A stretch of 64,000 nt of DNA from Pirellulales bacterium (GTDB taxonomy: Bacteria; Planctomycetota; Planctomycetia; Pirellulales; JAICIG01): positions 4,414 through 68,413 of the forward strand of contig DATKSN010000233.1 in NCBI GenBank assembly GCA_035531595.1, in the 5' to 3' direction. Position 1 is the first letter of the stretch; each line of letters opens with the position of its first letter. Shown piece by piece: positions 9,109 to 59,553 of the stretch. The notes beneath the pieces were generated by a model, which ran no database searches, was not told the DNA's origin, and was given only the letters and a program-made list of their open reading frames with translations. The position numbers and the translations under genes are program-made.

Positions 9109-10053
9109 ATGTACTGGGGGGAATGGAAACCGTATGTTCCCGTGGCTAAGCGGCGCGCCCAGGCCGCCCAGTTCGCGGCGAAGCAGGCGAAGAAAGAGGG
9201 TCGCGACCTGCGGCCGGTGAATATCGAAGGCCGCAAGATCGCACGCACGTTCTGGGGCGGAGCCTGGTGCGACAATCTGGAACGCTACAGCGACTTTGAA
9301 AACCGGCTTCCGCGCGGCCGCACCTACGTTCGCAACGGGTCGGTGATCGACCTGCACATCCAGCCCGGACGCGTGAAAGCCTTCGTCAGCGGCTCGGAGG
9401 TCTACACCGTCAAGATCGAGATCGACCGGCTCAAGCCGGCCGACTGGAAGCGGATCAAGGCCGAGTGCTCGGAAGCGATCGATTCGCTGCTCGACCTGTT
9501 GGCCGGTCGCTTTTCCGACGGCGTCATGCGGCGGCTGACGCGCGAGCGGGACGGCCTTTTTCCGCACCCCAAGGAAATCCATATGTCGTGCAGTTGCCCC
9601 GACTGGGCCGGACTGTGCAAACATATCGCCGCCGTACTCTACGGCGTCGCGGCGCGACTCGACGAGGAACCCCAACTCCTGTTTCTGCTCCGCGACGTCG
9701 ACCACGGCGAGCTGGTCAGCCAGGCGGTCTCGGGCGACAACCTCGCCGGCGCCCTGGGCTCGCGAGGCGACGCCCTGGCCGGAGAAGACCTGGGCGCCAT
9801 GTTCGGGATCGATCTCGATTCATCCGCAGTCGGCCAGGCCGCCACGAAAAGCGGGCGCCGGCGCCGCTCGCCGAGCCGCGCCGCCGAGCCGGCCGTGGCG
9901 ACAATCGTCGCGCCCAAGGTGAAGCGTAAGGCGCATGCCACCGCCGCAGCCCTCCCGCCGGCGGCCGCCGAGGAAACGAAAGCCGCCGCGCGCACGCGGG
10001 CCGCCAGGAAGAAACCGCTTGCCGCGGCCAAGCGAAAGCGCGGCGGCGTTTAG
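9109..10053 (+). CDS. SWIM zinc-finger protein with Lys/Arg/Ala-rich basic tail
   Basis: AAGGAG RBS sits before ATG 9109 (MYWGEWKPYVP). The SWIM motif is CSCPDWAGLCKHIAAVLYGV. The C-terminus is a basic low-complexity tail (..AARKKPLAAAKRKRGGV). No SNF2 helicase partner is adjacent. Confidence 0.8.
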   Translation: MYWGEWKPYVPVAKRRAQAAQFAAKQAKKEGRDLRPVNIEGRKIARTFWGGAWCDNLERYSDFENRLPRGRTYVRNGSVIDLHIQPGRVKAFVSGSEVYTVKIEIDRLKPADWKRIKAECSEAIDSLLDLLAGRFSDGVMRRLTRERDGLFPHPKEIHMSCSCPDWAGLCKHIAAVLYGVAARLDEEPQLLFLLRDVDHGELVSQAVSGDNLAGALGSRGDALAGEDLGAMFGIDLDSSAVGQAATKSGRRRRSPSRAAEPAVATIVAPKVKRKAHATAAALPPAAAEETKAAARTRAARKKPLAAAKRKRGGV

Positions 10054-10075
10054 TTCTTCTTCACCCGCAACCGAG

Positions 10076-10174
10076 AATGAGACGTTCACGGTGGCTGGGG
10101 CGGAGCCTAAGCGATGCCCCGGTCGCTATGTAGCCGGGGCATCGCTTACGCTCTGCCACCAGCCGGCGGGGGCT
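10076..10174 (+). repeat. Palindromic element family PAL, copy a (partial)
   Basis: Core: cacggtggctggggcggagcctaagcgatgccccgg...ccggggcatcgcttacgctctgccaccagcc. It starts about 20 bp after the SWIM gene stop. Confidence 0.8.
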
Positions 10175-19993: not shown

Positions 19994-20127
19994 GACTTCA
20001 CGGTGGCTGGGGCAGAGCCTTAGCGATGCCCCGGTCGCTATCGAGCCGGGGCATCGCCAAGGCTCTGCCACCAGCCACCGCCGCTTTCTCCCGCAAAATA
20101 TCTCATTGTCGGCCGCGTGAAGTATAA
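19994..20127 (+). repeat. Palindromic element family PAL, copy b
   Basis: Core 19999-20079 plus the right flank ...gctttctcccgcaaaatatctcattgtcggccgcgtgaagtataa. It begins right after the lipoprotein stop. Confidence 0.8.
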
Positions 20128-40904: not shown

Positions 40905-41060
40905 TATACTTCACGCGGCCATCAATGTGACATTTTGCCTCGAGAAAGTGGTGGCTGGTGGCAGAGCGTAAGCGATGCCCCGGCTAGATAGCGACCGAGG
41001 CATCGCTTACGCTCTGCCCCAGCCACCGTGAATGTCTCATTCCCGGCCGCGTGGAGTATA
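40905..41060 (-). repeat. Palindromic element family PAL, copy c (full length, about 156 bp)
   Basis: Outer inverted repeat tatacttcacgcggcc / ggccgcgtggagtata, and inner core gtggctggtggcagagcgtaagcgatgccccgg / ccgaggcatcgcttacgctctgccccagccac. Confidence 0.85.
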
Positions 41061-49893: not shown

Positions 49894-50334
49894 ATGAAAG
49901 CGAAGCTGTTTTTTTCGTTACTGGCCGTTGCCGGTTTCGTGCTGGCCAGCGCCAATAGCGCCAACGCCGGCCTGTTCCACCACAGGCGCGGTTGCTGCGA
50001 GCCGACCTGTTGCGAGCCGACCTGCGGCGCGCCGGCCGCTTGCGAACCCACCTGCGGCGCGCCGGCCGCTTGCGAACCCGCCTGCTGCGAGCCGACCTGC
50101 TGCGAGCCCGCCGGCTGCAATACGTGCGGCAACACCTGCTGCGGCAAGAAGCACCGGCTGCGGGGCTTGTTCCGCAAGCTGTGCAGCCGGAACAAGTGCT
50201 GCCAGCCGACGTGCTGCCAGCCGACGTGCTGCGAGCCAACGTGCGGCCAGCCGTCGTGCGCCGCGCCGTCGTGCGCCGAGCCGACTTGCGGCCAGCCGTC
50301 GTGCGCCGAGCCCACCTGCGGCGGCAACTACTAA
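49894..50334 (+). CDS. Secreted cysteine-rich repeat protein (C-[EQ]-P-[TS]-C pentapeptides)
   Basis: GGAGA RBS and signal peptide MKAKLFFSLLAVAGFVLASANSANA. The mature 121 aa contain 29 Cys by my count: CCEPTCCEPTCGAPAACEPTC...CCQPTCCQPTCCEPTCGQPSC... The underlying DNA is a 15-nt repeat, so all frames are open. A strong terminator follows. Confidence 0.75.
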   Translation: MKAKLFFSLLAVAGFVLASANSANAGLFHHRRGCCEPTCCEPTCGAPAACEPTCGAPAACEPACCEPTCCEPAGCNTCGNTCCGKKHRLRGLFRKLCSRNKCCQPTCCQPTCCEPTCGQPSCAAPSCAEPTCGQPSCAEPTCGGNY

Positions 50335-50395: not shown

Positions 50396-50432
50396 ACGGC
50401 CCCTTGCGGCAGCAAGCGGGCCGTTTTTTTTT
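50396..50432 (+). terminator. Rho-independent terminator of the Cys-rich protein gene
   Basis: acggccccttgc-ggca-gcaagcgggccgt stem-loop followed by a run of nine T. Confidence 0.85.
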
Positions 50433-50442
50433 CGCATCCAGG

Positions 50443-50560
50443 CTATAGCCCGTATTATTCATGGTCCGGGGAGGAACTCGCGCTCTGTGCCGTAGCGAAA
50501 TTCGCAAGAATTCTGGCGTAACTCGCGTCCACGGCCTGACTTCTTGCGAAGCCAGCTACG
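50443..50560 (+). mobile_element. CTAG-TIR MITE-like element, copy 1 (left end degenerate, no right TIR)
   Basis: ctatagcccgtattattcatggtccggggaggaactcgcgc...cttcttgcgaagccagctac. Confidence 0.75.
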
Positions 50561-50741
50561 GTCGCCGCGGCAAGACTAACCGTGACGCGGATCGTTGGAT
50601 TTTTGTCCTGATTTTTCTTGCTTCCGGACGGCACTTGTGCGAGTCTATAGGCTGATCCTGGGTGGGGCGGCGCCTGGGTGCGTTGGAATGCCCGTTTGTC
50701 GGACAACCCGTTTGTCGGAGAAGAAGAAGGGGAACGTCATC

Positions 50742-52568
50742 ATGGCCTCGCTTTGGTTTCGCTGTCAGCGCCGCGGCAACTTTCCGTGGCGGCCGGTTTG
50801 CTTCGTGGGACTCGTTGGTTGTTGTTGGGCGGCCGTGGCGGTCGCGGGCGCCCCGTCCGGCGCACCGTCCGGCGCCGACGCACTGTTGGAGGAACGACTG
50901 GATTGCGGAGAATTCGCTCCCGCCTTCGAGCAGGCGCGCCTCTTAGCCGATCCGGTCGAGCGCGACGGTCTACTCAAGCGGGTCGCCCAGGCGCAGGCCG
51001 GCGCCGGAGAACGTGCCGCGTCGTTGGCGACGATCGGTTCGATGCGCGACGACCTGGCGCGCGGCGCGGCCCTCGACGACATCGCCACGCGAACGCCCTC
51101 CGGCGGGCGGCCCGAGGGGGCGCCTGGCGGCGGAGGGATGAACAATTTTGGAGAACTCATCGAGCTGATCACGTCGACGATCAAACCCGAAAGTTGGGAC
51201 GAGACCGGCGGTCCGGGTACGATCAAGTCGTACCAGAACGGCGTTTACGTCGATCCCACAGGCGTCGTTCGACCGGTGACCGACCGCGACGGCGGCAGCC
51301 GGCTCGCTGAGTTCCGCCGCGCGGCTCGCCGCGCCGTTCACTCCAGCGACGCCCGGCGGACGTCGCCGTCGCGGAAGGTGTCGCTCAACCGTCTGGAACG
51401 CGCCGCGCAGTTGCGGCTGGCGGCGGGCCGCGCCCTGGACGAGGACATGTTCGTGCTCGCCGGCTTGCAGCGAGTCGAGTACGTGCTCGCCTACCCCGAG
51501 ACGGGCGACATCGTGCTGGCGGGTCCGGCCGCCGATTGGAAGTACGACCGCGAAAACCGCATCGTCGGCGCCGACACCGGCCGCCCCGTGTTGCAACTCG
51601 ACGACCTGGTGGTGCTGGCGCGGCACTTCAACGCCGCAGGGGGCGGTGCTTCCCGGGGAGGCGAATTGGCGGGCGGCGAATTGGCAGGCGGCGAATTCGG
51701 CTGTTCGATCGATCCCACCGAGAAAGGCCTGGCCAAGGCTCGCGCGTTTGCCGAAGCATCGAGCGCCAAGCCGCTCAAGCCGGGCCAACGCGGCAAGTGG
51801 CTGGAACAGCTTCGTAGTCAAATCGGCATGCAAGACGTGCGTGTCTTCGGCATCGACGGGCACTCGCGCGTCGCCCAGGTGATCGTCGAGGCCGACTACC
51901 GCATGAAGCTGATCGGGATCGGATTGGAAGAGGGAACGGCCGACGTGCCCAGCTACCTGCGCATGATCCAGATGGCCGCCGGCGAATCGCCGCGGCCCAT
52001 GGATGTGCTCCGCTGGTGGTTCACCGTCAATTACGACGCCGTGCTCACCAGCCCCGACCGCGACGTGTTCGAGATCCGCGGACAGGGGGTCAAAGTGCTC
52101 GGCGAGAACGAGATGCTCACCGCGGCGGGCAAGCAAATCCACACGGACAACGCCGACCCGCTGAACGCGGAATTCGCCCACAACTTCACCAGGCATTTCA
52201 CGGACCTGGCGGCCAAGTACCCGATTTACGCCGAGCTTCAGAACGTCTTCGACCTGGCCCTGGTCGCTTCGCTGTTGAAGTCCGAAGGGCTGGCCGACCA
52301 GGTTGGCTGGCACATGCGGTGCTTCGGCGACCCCAACCAGTACACGGTGGCCCGTTTTCCGGTGCCCAAGGCGGTCGACACGGTGATCAACCATCGCGTC
52401 GTACACGGCAAGCAGATCCTGGCGGCCGTCAGCGGCGGTGTCACAGCCGATTTCCGCGAGTTGGTCACGCCCGATGCGATTGCGATCGACCGCAAGGGGG
52501 CGTTGGGCAGCCGGCGCTCCCGTTCCGCGCCCGACGACGCGCCCCATGCGGCCTGGTGGTGGGACTAA
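50742..52568 (+). CDS. Secreted hypothetical protein (608 aa)
   Basis: Start at ATG 50742 with an N-terminal hydrophobic segment. It carries the planctomycete-typical motif FGELIELITSTIKPESWDETGGPGTI and the in-frame tandem repeats APSGAPSG and GELAGGELAGGEF. Confidence 0.7.
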   Translation: MASLWFRCQRRGNFPWRPVCFVGLVGCCWAAVAVAGAPSGAPSGADALLEERLDCGEFAPAFEQARLLADPVERDGLLKRVAQAQAGAGERAASLATIGSMRDDLARGAALDDIATRTPSGGRPEGAPGGGGMNNFGELIELITSTIKPESWDETGGPGTIKSYQNGVYVDPTGVVRPVTDRDGGSRLAEFRRAARRAVHSSDARRTSPSRKVSLNRLERAAQLRLAAGRALDEDMFVLAGLQRVEYVLAYPETGDIVLAGPAADWKYDRENRIVGADTGRPVLQLDDLVVLARHFNAAGGGASRGGELAGGELAGGEFGCSIDPTEKGLAKARAFAEASSAKPLKPGQRGKWLEQLRSQIGMQDVRVFGIDGHSRVAQVIVEADYRMKLIGIGLEEGTADVPSYLRMIQMAAGESPRPMDVLRWWFTVNYDAVLTSPDRDVFEIRGQGVKVLGENEMLTAAGKQIHTDNADPLNAEFAHNFTRHFTDLAAKYPIYAELQNVFDLALVASLLKSEGLADQVGWHMRCFGDPNQYTVARFPVPKAVDTVINHRVVHGKQILAAVSGGVTADFRELVTPDAIAIDRKGALGSRRSRSAPDDAPHAAWWWD

Positions 52569-52707
52569 CTAGCCCGGATTATTCATGGTCCAGTAGCTGG
52601 CTTCGCAAGAAGTCAGGCCGTGGACGCGAGTTACGCCAGAATTCTTGCGAATTCTGCTACAGCACAGTGCGCGAGTTCCTCCCCGGACCATGAATAATCC
52701 GGGCTAG
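52569..52707 (-). mobile_element. CTAG-TIR MITE-like element, copy 2 (complete, 139 bp, perfect 23-bp terminal inverted repeats)
   Basis: ctagcccggattattcatggtcc ... ggaccatgaataatccgggctag. The core is the reverse complement of copies 1 and 3. No ORF. Confidence 0.85.
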
Positions 52708-53318
52708 GCGTCGGGAGTGTCGAGGATTCCTTGCAACCGTTGGGTGAGCAACGGCGGCAGCTTGGCAAGCCAACTCCGGTCGATGAGGCCAACACCGATG
52801 AGGTCACGCACATGCGTCCGATCCTTGTCGCGGTTCGACAGCAACTTCATGGACACAAGCGCCTCAAGTGTGGCGACGCGAAAGCCGGCCGGGTCGTCGA
52901 TGGCGACGAGCTCCGGTGAAGGCAACAGGTGGTCGGCGCGGACCTTTTCCCCGGCGAAAAGGAGATGGATCGACTCGCTGGGTTTGGCGTCGGGACCATC
53001 CAGGAACATAATCACGTCGAGAACTTCCGCCCGCACGAACCCCGCCTCTTCAAGCGCCGTGGTGACGTCGGGTAAGTCCTCGCGCCGGATGAGCAGGTCG
53101 ATGTCGCGGGTATTGCGCACCGCTCCTTCATCGATGGTGGCCACCCACGAGGCGACGGCGTTGCCACCGACGACGGCGTAGGGAACATGGGCATGGTTAA
53201 GGACCGCGGTCGCCCGCAACAAACGTTCGCGTACCTTCGCCACGGCTCGCTCCATACGGTCCACGATTTCCCAGGCCATCGTGACCGTCGCGCTTGTCTT
53301 TCTTGGTTCAAGACCCAT
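52704..53318 (-). CDS. Nucleotidyltransferase-fold protein (MNT/AbiEii-like)
   Basis: YAVVGGNAVASWV...RNTRDIDLLIRREDL fits the hGG..(n)..D.D NTase pattern. ATG 53279 is an alternative start. Its stop codon lies inside the MITE TIR. Confidence 0.55.
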   Translation of the reverse strand: MGLEPRKTSATVTMAWEIVDRMERAVAKVRERLLRATAVLNHAHVPYAVVGGNAVASWVATIDEGAVRNTRDIDLLIRREDLPDVTTALEEAGFVRAEVLDVIMFLDGPDAKPSESIHLLFAGEKVRADHLLPSPELVAIDDPAGFRVATLEALVSMKLLSNRDKDRTHVRDLIGVGLIDRSWLAKLPPLLTQRLQGILDTPDA

Positions 53319-58147: not shown

Positions 58148-59269
58148 GTGTCATTTACCTTCACGCTCCACCACCACGACCCGGCCAGCCAGGCGCGGCG
58201 AGGCACGTTCCACACGCCTCATGGGCCGGTGGAGACTCCGGCGTTCATGCCCGTCGGCACGCAGGGCGCCGTCAAAGGCGTGACCTTCGACCAAATCCGC
58301 GCGACGGGCGCGGCGATGGTGCTGGCCAATACCTATCACTTGACGTTGCGGCCGGGCGAGAAAATCGTCGAAGCCTTGGGTGGCCTGCACGCCTTCATGC
58401 ACTGGGACGGGCCCATCTTGACCGACAGCGGCGGCTTTCAACTCTACAGCCTGGCCCAACTGACCCAGATCGGTGACGATGCGGCCGTGTTCTGCTCGCA
58501 TATCGACGGCCGTGCCTTGAGCTTGTCGCCCGAACGGGCCATCGCCATTCAGGAGTCGTTGGGTAGCGACGTGGCGATGGTTTTGGATCATGTCGTACCC
58601 TTGCCCAGCCCCGCGGACGTGGTGCGCGACGCGGTCGAACGTACCGTCCGCTGGGCCGAACGAAGCAAGAACGCCGCTCGGCGGAGCGACCAAACCCTCT
58701 TTGGCATCGTCCAAGGGGGGCTGGACGAAGCGCTGCGCGTTTCGTGTGGCCGGCGACTGGTGGCCCTCGACTTCGCGGGCTACGCGGTGGGCGGGCTGAG
58801 CGTCGGCGAAACGCCCGAGCAGATGTACCGCGCGCTCGAATTCACCGTGCCCGTACTGCCCGCCGACAAGCCCCGCTACCTGATGGGCGTCGGGAGGCCG
58901 CAAGACCTGCTGGAGGCCGTCCACAGAGGTATCGACCTGTTCGACTGCGTCATGCCGACTCGCAACGGACGCAACGCTTTGGCCTTTACCGACCACGGCC
59001 GGCTACGTTTGCGAAATCAGCAGTTCGAGCGCGACGAGCGGCCGCTCGAAGCCGATTGTCCCTGCCTGGCCTGCCGCCACAGCCGCGGCTACCTGCGGCA
59101 CCTGTTCATGGCCCGCGAAATGCTGGGGCCGATCCTGCTCTCGATTCACAACCTGACCTTCTACCAGCGGCTGCTCGCAGCCACCCGGCAAGCGATTGCC
59201 GCGGGCCGTTTCGGAGAATTCAAAATGGGTAAACTGGCGGCGTGGGAGGGGGAAATGTACAACGGCTAG
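58148..59269 (+). CDS. tgt: tRNA-guanine transglycosylase
   Basis: [29 protein letters not shown] and the zinc site CxCxxC ([16 protein letters not shown]). The TAG stop lies inside the MITE TIR. Confidence 0.95.
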
Positions 59270-59380
59270 CCCGGATTATTCATGGTCCGGGGAGGAACTC
59301 ACACACTGTGCTGTAGCAGAATTCGCAAGAATTCTGGCGTAGCTCGCGTCCACGGCCTGACTTCTTGCGAAGCCAGCTAC
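59266..59380 (+). mobile_element. CTAG-TIR MITE-like element, copy 3 (no right TIR)
   Basis: ctagcccggattattcatggtccggggaggaactcacacactgtgctgtagcagaattcgcaagaattctggcgtagctcgcgtccacggcctgacttcttgcgaagccagctac. Confidence 0.8.
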
Positions 59381-59553
59381 GGGACTTGCCCGTTACGCCG
59401 CTTCATCTTATGATACGCGGCGACACGCGTTGGCCGCTCGGCTCGAGGCGCGCGAGCGCCGTCGGGCCGTTTATGTTCGCACCGGTCGCGAGGTTGCGGC
59501 CGGTGTGGAAATCCGCCTTCGGGGCGGTTCAGGGGGGATTCGTCGTGGATTTC

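What the first reader, a model, noticed from the sequence alone, without database searches (positions are those of the whole stretch)
52569..52707. MITE with perfect 23-bp TIRs ending in CTAG that donates stop codons to flanking genes
The complete copy is 139 bp: ctagcccggattattcatggtcc ... ggaccatgaataatccgggctag. Its right-hand CTAG is the TAG stop of the minus-strand NTase-like gene (52704-52706). Its left end starts 1 nt after the TAA of the 608-aa protein gene. In copy 3 (59266-59380) the TIR's TAG is the stop codon of tgt. Copy 1 (50443-50560) sits just after the Cys-rich gene's terminator. Copies 1 and 3 lack the right TIR. This points to CTAG/TAG-targeted insertion. Some IS families duplicate CTAG/TNA-type targets, a statement I make from memory. 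Insertion may have remodelled host gene C-termini.
Basis: partly seen in the sequence, partly recalled or inferred. Interest (0 to 1): 0.6.

Follow-up and report, generated by a model that had tools for sequence, protein, structure and literature searches.

The report
CTAG-targeting MITE carrying a REP doublet
This is a small, non-coding jumping-DNA element, present in many copies in an uncultured planctomycete; it inserts at CTAG-like sites and duplicates those four bases, so where the site held a gene's TAG stop codon that stop comes from the host target rather than from the element.

Summary
Window 52569-52707 is a 139-bp repeat with perfect 23-nt inverted ends, and two one-ended copies lie at 50445-50561 and 59266-59385.

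The anatomy needs correcting. The true terminal inverted repeat (TIR) is 19 bp, CCCGGATTATTCATGGTCC. The outer CTAG is a 4-bp target-site duplication (TSD).
- In 90 non-redundant full copies from related metagenome contigs, the 4-bp flanks are identical direct repeats in 64.
- The spectrum is CTAG 36, CTAA/TTAG 11, ATAG/CTAT 7, with a few lacking TA.
- Deleting an element plus one flank copy restores uninterrupted paralogous sites at 100% identity.

The interior is two GTAG-tagged REP hairpins in inverted orientation, resembling a REPIN. Each has an 8-bp stem with compensatory changes and a GCAA or GTGA loop.

Stop codons come from the target, not the element. 120 relatives of the NTase-like protein nearly all end at the same residue. 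Stop-codon overlap (21/90) matches that of unoccupied CTAG sites (87/413). The tgt tail cannot be judged.

The one-ended copies break within 0-6 nt of the REP's GTAG end, which is a recurrent breakpoint. No autonomous partner or RAYT gene was found.

Verdict: a new MITE family with an IS5-like target signature. It is well supported but fairly ordinary.

The parts
52569..52572 (.). Copy 2, left 4-bp target-site duplication (CTAG). It directly follows the TAA (52566-52568) of the DUF1598 gene.
52573..52591 (+). Copy 2, 19-bp terminal inverted repeat CCCGGATTATTCATGGTCC (the REP2-side end)
52593..52616 (+). Copy 2, REP2: GTAG + CTGGCTTC / GCAA loop / GAAGTCAG (8-bp stem with one G-T pair)
52617..52636 (.). 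Copy 2, 20-nt spacer between the two REPs; it forms the loop of the long hairpin
52637..52660 (-). Copy 2, REP1 (GTAG on the minus strand): GTAG + CAGAATTC / GCAA / GAATTCTG
52661..52684 (-). Copy 2, 24-nt unpaired spacer (GGGGAGGAACTCGCGCACTGTGCT on the minus strand)
52685..52703 (-). Copy 2, second 19-bp terminal inverted repeat
52704..52707 (.). Copy 2, right 4-bp target-site duplication (CTAG). Positions 52704-52706 are the TAG stop of the minus-strand NTase-like gene 52704-53318.
50445..50448 (.). Copy 1, left flank/target tetramer ATAG
50449..50561 (+). Copy 1, one-ended: TIR 50449-50467 (one mismatch), spacer 50468-50491, REP1 50492-50515, inter-REP spacer 50516-50535, REP2 50536-50559. 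It breaks 2 nt after the CTAC; the second TIR is absent.
59266..59269 (.). Copy 3, left target tetramer CTAG. Positions 59267-59269 are the TAG stop of tgt (58148-59269).
59270..59385 (+). Copy 3, one-ended: TIR 59270-59288, spacer 59289-59312, REP1 59313-59336, inter-REP spacer 59337-59356, REP2 59357-59380, then GGGAC (the first bases toward the second TIR). It breaks 5 nt after the CTAC.
59386..59414 (+). Host sequence that resumes exactly at the break of copy 3: a promoter-like TTGCCC-17-TATGAT upstream of yajC-secDF, conserved in the orthologous contig that lacks the element
50403..50432 (+). Terminator-like hairpin and T-run of the Cys-rich gene (49894-50334), just upstream of copy 1

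Best explanation
The element is a 131-bp non-autonomous DNA transposon (MITE). It is bounded by 19-bp terminal inverted repeats and was most probably moved in trans by a transposase that makes a 4-bp staggered cut at CTAG-like sites. That is the target and duplication signature known for IS5.

Its cargo, in order, is a 24-nt spacer and then two GTAG-tagged REP hairpins in inverted orientation (a REPIN-like doublet). These fold either as two small hairpins or as one long one.

CTAG, TTAG and CTAA contain a stop codon. CTAG is rare in this 64% G+C genome, and roughly a fifth of CTAG sites are gene ends, so many copies sit exactly on a stop codon. The duplication regenerates that codon, so the coding sequence is unchanged.

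One-ended copies such as window copies 1 and 3 arise later, by breakage or deletion next to the GTAG end of the REP doublet.

Shown here: mobility as a unit, the 4-bp duplication, the target spectrum, the REP structure, and the breakpoint clustering.
Inferred: the type of transposase, and the cause of the breaks.
For: Element ends and target duplication
- 90 non-redundant full copies have a modal length of 131 bp. Their 4-bp flanks are identical direct repeats in 64 of 90, and 17 more differ by 1 nt.
- Shuffled pairings give a mean of 26 and a maximum of 36 identical pairs. Direct repeats of 2, 3, 5, 6 or 8 bp measured at the same boundary fail.
- 28 of the 64 exact pairs are non-palindromic: CTAA, ATAG, CCAG, CGAG, CAAG, CCAA.
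- Removing the element plus one duplicate restores uninterrupted paralogous sites. L083 matches L109 at 100% over 74 nt, L095 matches itself at 100% over 80 nt, and L039 matches L123 at 98.7% over 78 nt.
- The orthologous tgt-yajC spacer in an 84%-identical relative has no element. Homology resumes at the element boundary.

Spread of the family
- The same exact 20-mer TIR pattern (the 19-bp TIR plus the adjacent flank base) occurs in MAGs labelled Schlesneria, Planctomycetaceae and Pirellulales, with different internal stems.
- The same TIR bounds other cargos. One 603-bp element has TTAG on both sides.

Target preference
- CTAG gives 36 of 64 duplications at a background of 0.54 per kb.
- The IS5 duplication motif is YTAR (PMC5009759).

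REP arms
- The form is GTAG + 8-bp stem + GCAA/GTGA loop. 92.5% of cells are paired. 46 cells changed on both sides against 14.6 in shuffles (0 of 500 shuffles reach this). Slid controls pair at 50% or less.

Stop codons
- NTase relatives nearly all end at the same residue.
- The dnaK and NTase stops are reconstructed unchanged.
- 21/90 copies against 87/413 empty CTAG sites end an ORF of at least 150 codons.
- There is no orientation bias relative to the gene: 14 against 8.

Breakpoints
- All 7 true right-hand truncations lie 0-6 nt after the CTAC.
- Left-hand truncations cluster at the other GTAG (about 10) and at the REP2 foot (about 9).
Against: - No autonomous element with these TIRs was found, and no transposase gene lies next to any TIR, in 1.15 Mb of sampled sequence.
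- The sample holds no homologue of the E. coli IS5 transposase, and the IS5 ends are unrelated in sequence.
- 26 of 90 flank pairs are not identical.
- ATAG, CCAG and CGAG are not strictly YTAR.
- Copies in the Pirellulales MAG DATLQY show a constant ATAG at one end, but those copies lie at contig ends.
- All copies come from metagenome assemblies, which can collapse or break at repeats.
Confidence: 0.8

Rival explanations
1. It is a TA-duplicating MITE of the IS630/Tc1-mariner type with 21-bp TIRs (G...C ends). It prefers CTAG and duplicates only the central TA.
For: IS630 is recalled (from memory) to insert at CTAG and duplicate TA. Most flanks do contain TA next to the element.
Against: - Non-palindromic tetramers recur as direct repeats on both sides (CTAA 11, ATAG 7). 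A TA-only duplication does not predict this.
- Exact duplications without TA exist: CCAG 4, CGAG 2, CAAG 1, CCAA 1.
- Empty-site reconstruction works with a 4-bp duplicate, including at CTCG.
Confidence: 0.03
2. The whole unit is a REPIN-type element moved by a REP-associated tyrosine transposase (RAYT/TIRYT, HUH family). The 'TIRs' would be a palindromic landing site or part of the hairpin, not binding sites for a DDE transposase.
For: - The interior is a GTAG-REP head-to-head doublet.
- Tandem REP arrays exist: 27-29-nt and 78-nt units.
- Breakpoints sit at GTAG, where the E. coli RAYT is reported to cleave.
- REP dimers inside long palindromes, and RAYT-like genes flanked by TIRs, have been described. 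R. baltica is rich in such genes (PMC3733652).
Against: - HUH Y1 transposition makes no target duplication (established knowledge of IS200/IS605). Here 64 of 90 copies carry an exact 4-bp duplication.
- The TIR moves other cargos that have no GTAG REP.
- No RAYT-like ORF was found by motif search in 1.15 Mb. This is a weak test, because such genes are usually single-copy.
Confidence: 0.07
3. The copies are kept because they work as RNA elements at gene 3' ends, for example as terminators or as hairpins that stabilise or destabilise mRNA. Insertion at stop codons would then be selected, not incidental.
For: - The full copy folds at -76.5 kcal/mol, z = -9.4.
- The stems show compensatory changes and tolerate G-T pairs, which would be G-U in RNA.
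- REPs and MITEs near 3' ends are reported to affect mRNA fate (PMC3733652).
Against: - There is no orientation bias relative to the upstream gene: 14 against 8.
- There is no enrichment at gene ends beyond that of empty CTAG sites.
- No T-run follows the hairpin at any window copy.
- There is no Rfam match.
- 11 of 90 copies are nested inside another repeat.
Confidence: 0.1
4. The element supplies new stop codons and has remodelled host C-termini, at least for tgt.
For: tgt ends 7 residues after the conserved Trp. The closest orthologue without the element runs 26 residues and has its own TAG 63 nt further on.
Against: - tgt tails range from 2 to 26 residues among orthologues.
- Copy 3 has lost its right end and some flank, so the original target cannot be rebuilt.
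- For the NTase-like gene and dnaK the stop position is unchanged.
Confidence: 0.1

Closest known systems
Bacterial MITEs derived from DDE insertion sequences (for example Correia/NEMIS, RUP, ERIC, Nezha)
   Same: Small (131 bp), non-coding and high-copy, with TIRs, a target-site duplication, strong predicted hairpins, and a mostly intergenic location often next to gene ends.
   Different: The TIR sequence was not found in PLSDB, IMG/VR or searchable paper text. No parent IS has been identified. The interior is not just the space between TIRs; it is a structured GTAG-REP doublet.
IS5 (IS5 group of the IS5 family): 4-bp duplication at YTAR
   Same: A 4-bp duplication with a target centred on CTAG, CTAA/TTAG and TTAA: 49 of 64 exact duplications.
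   Different: The ends are unrelated to those of IS5 (GGAAGGTGCGAATAAG). No InsH-like gene was found in the sample. ATAG, CCAG and CGAG targets are also used.
GTAG-tagged REPs and REPINs (Bertels & Rainey 2011; Di Nocera et al. 2013)
   Same: A GTAG tag, an 8-bp stem and a 4-nt loop. An inverted head-to-head doublet with a conserved spacer of about 20 nt forms a long hairpin. Compensatory changes and tandem clusters are present, and a TAG at the repeat's end sometimes serves as a gene's stop.
   Different: Here the doublet travels inside a TIR-bounded unit that makes a 4-bp duplication. Free doublets are rare: about 1 in 116. No RAYT gene was seen.
REP dimers embedded in long palindromes (Anabaena variabilis GTAG-15, Halothiobacillus neapolitanus CGTC-1; PMC3733652)
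   Same: A REP dimer enclosed by a longer inverted repeat that is not found empty in the same genome.
   Different: No target duplication or mobility as a unit was reported in the passages of that paper read here. In the present data the enclosing repeat also carries other cargos, and it occurs once without cargo (L001).

Membership tests
MITE (non-autonomous DDE-type transposon) | Small and without coding capacity | tested here: met
   131 bp between the duplications. The only ORF is ATG AAT AAT CCG GGC plus a stop, reading outward from the TIR.
MITE (non-autonomous DDE-type transposon) | Terminal inverted repeats | tested here: met
   A 19-bp TIR, perfect in copy 2. An exact 20-mer containing it is found across several MAG lineages.
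MITE (non-autonomous DDE-type transposon) | Direct target-site duplication, with empty sites that have a single copy of the target | tested here: met
   64 of 90 flank pairs are exact 4-bp direct repeats, against a shuffled mean of 26. Paralogous empty sites are restored at 100% identity.
MITE (non-autonomous DDE-type transposon) | Many dispersed copies in unrelated contexts | tested here: met
   146 hits in 113 metagenome stretches with the scan cut off at its limit. Three copies lie in the window and two more just beyond it on the same contig.
MITE (non-autonomous DDE-type transposon) | An autonomous IS with the same TIRs | tested here: inconclusive
   None was found among the TIR pairs in 1.15 Mb. 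Pairs farther apart hold host genes or non-coding cargo. The complete genome was not available.
IS5-group derivative | 4-bp duplication at YTAR | tested here: met
   CTAG 36, CTAA/TTAG 11 and TTAA 2 of 64; the rest differ from CTAG at one position, or two for CCAA. The IS5 motif is from PMC5009759.
IS5-group derivative | Ends or transposase related to IS5-family elements | tested here: inconclusive
   There is no similarity to the E. coli IS5 ends, and tblastn with InsH gave no hit better than E = 3.5 in the sample. Other IS5-family members were not tested.
IS630/Tc1-mariner-derived MITE | TA dinucleotide duplication | tested here: not met
   Non-palindromic 4-bp direct repeats and duplications lacking TA. 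A CTCG empty site was restored.
GTAG REP / REPIN | A short palindrome tagged by GTAG at one end | tested here: met
   The form is GTAG + 8-bp stem + 4-nt loop + 8-bp stem. The G, T and final G of the tag are invariant, and its third base is A in most variants and G in a few (GTGG), in 45 distinct variants that were selected by a GT[AG]G-anchored pattern.
GTAG REP / REPIN | Stem kept by compensatory change | tested here: met
   92.5% of cells are paired. 5 of 8 pairs show changes on both sides. 46 cells changed on both sides against 14.6 in shuffles (0 of 500 reach this). Slid controls pair at 50% or less.
GTAG REP / REPIN | An inverted doublet with a spacer that forms a hairpin | tested here: met
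   REP1 and REP2 are inverted, with GTAG outward and a 20-nt spacer. The long hairpin appears in the predicted fold.
GTAG REP / REPIN | A cognate RAYT gene flanked by the REPs | tested here: inconclusive
   A motif search (HUH plus NPxRA) of the six-frame translations of 1.15 Mb found none. The genome is incomplete and the test is crude.
Rho-independent terminator | A G+C-rich hairpin directly followed by a T-run | tested here: not met
   No terminator-like site was called at any of the three copies. The only one nearby (50403-50432) is host sequence upstream of copy 1.
Any curated RNA family (Rfam 15) | Match at the gathering score | tested here: not met
   No matches in the whole window.

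The most novel reading that the evidence does not exclude
One 131-bp element is acted on by two unrelated mobility systems. A DDE-type transposase uses the 19-bp TIRs and spreads the unit to CTAG sites. A RAYT-type tyrosine transposase recognises the internal GTAG REPs. The RAYT activity would generate the one-ended copies (such as window copies 1 and 3), the rare free doublets, and the tandem REP arrays. In that reading the REPs use a MITE as their main vehicle, which would be a route of REP dispersal independent of the RAYT.
Probability: 0.3. Interest if true: 0.6.

Novelty: new member of a known kind. Interest (0 to 1): 0.35.

Why it matters
- It explains why intergenic repeats in this planctomycete so often abut stop codons. 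The element targets a tetramer that contains a stop codon on both strands, and it rebuilds that tetramer on insertion. It can therefore land exactly at the end of a gene without changing the protein. Annotators should not read such junctions as C-terminal remodelling.
- The family accounts for many contig breaks in Planctomycetota MAGs.
- It offers a clean natural case for asking how REP hairpins and TIR-based MITEs combine.
- Practically, the 19-bp TIR is a search handle for the still-unknown transposase.

Tried and rejected
- **Regulatory or structured RNA.** No Rfam match and no orientation bias.
- **Start of a real protein.** The ATG in the TIR gives only MNNPG plus a stop, or chance ORFs.
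- **Solo TIRs as ends of an autonomous IS.** The neighbours of L005, L016 and L017 are ordinary host genes.
- **Distant TIR pairs (478-2903 bp).** They enclose host genes or non-coding cargo and give no Pfam hit.
- **Other unpaired TIRs.** No transposase-like ORF within 2.5 kb.
- **tblastn with the E. coli IS5 transposase.** Nothing found.
- **Motif search for a RAYT.** Nothing found.
- **TIR searches elsewhere.** No hit in IMG/VR, PLSDB or paper text (only unrelated primers).
- **Exact-protein look-ups.** These failed for the window's own tgt and NTase ORFs because the gene calls on record use other start codons. This was solved through homologue P0001.
- **Bias from the first genome scan.** Its pattern included the G of the flank and so biased the flank logo. 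The metagenome scan used an internal pattern to avoid this.
- **First empty-site search.** The fuzzy-regex version timed out and was redone with blastn.
- **TA-only duplication.** Considered first, from the TA next to nearly every copy, and rejected.

Full report
**1. The observation**

Window 52569-52707 is as described. It has two 23-nt arms, 100% complementary, 93 nt apart. The 23-mer occurs four times in the window at up to 3 mismatches, with none expected by chance.

Copies 1 (from 50445) and 3 (from 59266) share the left arm and the interior. They are 93% identical to each other and 96% complementary to copy 2, which is inverted relative to them. Both lack the second arm.

The gene contacts are correct:
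- The DUF1598 gene ends with TAA at 52566-52568.
- A nucleotidyltransferase-like ORF (52704-53318, minus strand) uses 52704-52706 as its TAG.
- tgt (58148-59269) uses 59267-59269 as its TAG.
- Copy 1 follows the terminator-like hairpin and T-run of a Cys-rich gene.

These points rest. DUF1598 and the nearest homologues place the window in Planctomycetota, probably Pirellulales. The source is JGI metagenome contig Ga0307374_10000077.

**2. The outer CTAG is a target duplication, not part of the inverted repeat**

A scan of one genome per species with the TIR found the element in MAGs labelled Schlesneria, Planctomycetaceae and Pirellulales. The base before TA varied among those copies. Because that pattern included a flank base, I sampled again with an internal 21-mer in metagenome contigs. 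This gave 146 hits in 113 stretches, mostly from three samples of the source habitat.

Results on 90 non-redundant full copies (modal length 131 bp):
- The four bases outside each CCCGG end are identical as direct repeats in 64 copies, and differ at one base in 17 more.
- Shuffled pairings give a mean of 26 identical pairs and a maximum of 36.
- Direct repeats of 2, 3, 5, 6 or 8 bp measured at the same boundary fail.
- 28 of the exact pairs are non-palindromic: CTAA/TTAG 11, ATAG/CTAT 7, CCAG/CTGG 4, CGAG 2, CAAG 1, CCAA 1. This excludes both a longer TIR and a TA-only duplication.

Eleven copies are nested inside another repeat family. For these, deleting the element plus one duplicate recreates an uninterrupted paralogue:
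- L083 against L109: 100% over 74 nt.
- L095 against another site on the same contig: 100% over 80 nt, with target CTCG.
- L039 against L123: 98.7% over 78 nt.

The orthologous tgt-yajC spacer of an 84%-identical relative has no element, and homology resumes exactly at the boundary of copy 3.

The unit therefore inserts as a whole and makes a 4-bp staggered cut.

**3. Target preference**

CTAG supplies 36 of the 64 exact duplications. It occurs only 0.54 times per kb in 938 kb of this 64% G+C sequence. With CTAA/TTAG and TTAA, 49 of 64 fit YTAR. YTAR is the duplication motif measured for IS5 (PMC5009759).

**4. Stop codons**

CTAG, TTAG and CTAA contain a stop codon, and the duplication rebuilds it.
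- For copy 2, the reconstructed pre-insertion sequence is ...GAC TAA CTAG GCG... The NTase TAG was therefore already there, abutting the TAA of the convergent gene.
- For a further full copy 14 kb downstream on the same contig, the TTAG duplication contains the dnaK stop, which is also unchanged.
- The tails of the 120 relatives of the NTase-like protein (78-99% identical) nearly all end at the same residue...ILDTPDA/S/G.
- Two of those relatives, fetched with their DNA, have no element and stop at that codon with TGA.

Across the family, 21 of 90 copies have an ORF of at least 150 codons ending in the duplication. The figure for CTAG sites outside full copies is 87 of 413. There is no orientation bias relative to the gene: 14 against 8.

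The association with stop codons therefore follows from where the target tetramer occurs. The element does not donate the stop.

For tgt the question stays open. Its tail is 7 residues, against 26 in the closest relative lacking the element. However, tails range from 2 to 26 residues among orthologues, and copy 3 has lost its right end.

**5. The interior is a REP doublet**

Each arm of the internal 'hairpin' is itself a small palindrome preceded by GTAG:
- REP1: GTAG-CAGAATTC-GCAA-GAATTCTG.
- REP2: GTAG-CTGGCTTC-GCAA-GAAGTCAG.

The two are inverted with GTAG outward and are separated by 20 nt.

Copies from other lineages keep GTAG, the 8-bp stem and a GCAA, GTGA or GCCA loop, but with different stems. 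Examples are CTGAGTTC/GAACTCAG, CCAATCTC/GAGATTGG and CGGAATTC/GAATTCCG.

On 45 distinct variants:
- 92.5% of cells pair.
- Five of eight pairs show changes on both sides.
- 46 cells changed on both sides, against 14.6 in shuffles (0 of 500 shuffles reach this).
- Slid registers pair at 50% or less.

Two caveats apply. The variants were collected with a pattern that fixed the inner two pairs, and they are related to one another.

This matches the published definition of GTAG-tagged REPs: stems of 5-13 bp, loops of 2-20 nt, head-to-head dimers. It also matches REPINs, which are REP doublets forming hairpins (PMC3733652; PMC3116915). The first paper reports several REP families and many tyrosine-transposase genes in Rhodopirellula baltica. 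It also reports REP dimers enclosed in long palindromes in Anabaena variabilis, and it notes that GTAG REP termini often provide TAG stops.

**6. The one-ended copies**

In 116 non-redundant copies sampled through REP2, all seven true right-hand truncations, including window copies 1 and 3, lie 0-6 nt beyond the CTAC. Left-hand truncations cluster at the other GTAG (about 10 cases) and at the foot of REP2 (about 9 cases).

Tandem arrays of the 27-29-nt REP2 unit and of a 78-nt doublet unit also exist.

This is REP-like behaviour. The E. coli RAYT is reported to cleave at the GTAG motif (PMC3733652). Whether a RAYT or hairpin-driven deletion causes the breaks here is inference.

The break of copy 3 stops exactly at a promoter-like TTGCCC-17-TATGAT. 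That sequence is conserved in the relative lacking the element and lies upstream of yajC-secDF.

**7. What moves it**

This is unknown.
- The same TIR bounds other cargos. These include a different long hairpin of about 131 bp, elements of 478-715 bp (one with TTAG on both sides), and one case of bare TIR-TIR. That argues for a TIR-recognising transposase acting in trans.
- No transposase gene lies beside any TIR in 1.15 Mb.
- There is no IS5 InsH homologue and no RAYT-like ORF by motif.
- The TIR is absent from IMG/VR, PLSDB and searchable paper text.
- Rfam has no match.

**8. Verdict**

The finding is real. It is a new MITE family: a 19-bp TIR, a 4-bp duplication at CTAG-like (IS5-like) targets, and a REPIN-like cargo.

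It is a new member of a known kind. The REP-doublet-in-MITE architecture and the GTAG breakpoints are the only unusual aspects.

Noticed in passing
window ~40905-41060; partial copies ~10075-10165 and ~20006-20080; L019 17445-17605: A second palindromic repeat family of about 155 bp, with ends TATACT.CACGCGGCC...GGCCGCGTG.AGTATA and core ...AAGCGATGCCCCGG-loop-CCGGGGCATCGCTT... The sample holds 33 uninterrupted cores. Its central CTAG/ATAG/TTAG is a favoured landing site for the MITE: 11 of 90 copies are nested there.
   Followed up: partly
window 59386-59414; L022 11191-11219: A promoter-like TTGCCC-17-TATGAT upstream of yajC-secDF, conserved between the window and an 84%-identical relative. 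It starts exactly where copy 3 breaks off, as if the deletion could go no further.
   Followed up: partly
L102 1-473; L098 88-457; L050 ~1-360; L032 ~1-300: Tandem arrays built from parts of the element: a 78-nt REP-doublet unit x4.2, a 27-29-nt REP2 unit x5-6, and a 116-nt unit x3 that includes one TIR and flank.
   Followed up: partly
L039 2650-2781; L109 ~9148-9272; L035 11437-12040; L064 9677-10392; L026 2393-2871; L001 2364-2410: The same 19-bp TIR bounds other cargos. These include a different long hairpin (CACACCAACCCGCGGCGCAAGCAAGG...), non-coding elements of 478-715 bp (L035 has TTAG on both sides), and in L001 a bare TIR-TIR palindrome.
   Followed up: partly
window 50431-50458 (+) and 52723-52694 (-): The TIR contains a -10-like hexamer (TATTAT/GATTAT). 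Together with chance -35-like flank hexamers it scores as a promoter-like site reading into the element. Every TIR also carries an outward mini-ORF, ATG AAT AAT CCG GGC + stop.
   Followed up: no
L001 (MAG labelled Myxococcales) and L016 (MAG labelled Deltaproteobacteria): Exact matches to the TIR occur in two MAGs not labelled Planctomycetota. This could be binning contamination or horizontal spread; it was not resolved.
   Followed up: no
window 49894-50334: A gene for a 146-aa Cys-rich protein built of 15-nt (5-aa) repeats (C-C-E-P-T-like). It matches the Pfam Keratin_B2 models (E = 7e-17) and is followed by a clean hairpin and T-run.
   Followed up: no
L059 8494-8898; L035 4729-4995; L045 ~1500-1700: Head-to-tail tandem insertions of full elements that share a single CTAG between neighbours: three in a row in L059.
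   Followed up: no
L006, L013, L014 (Pirellulales MAG DATLQY): Copies at contig ends show a constant ATAG at the far end while the near flank varies (CTAG/TTAG). This is probably an assembly effect at repeat boundaries and is otherwise unexplained.
   Followed up: no
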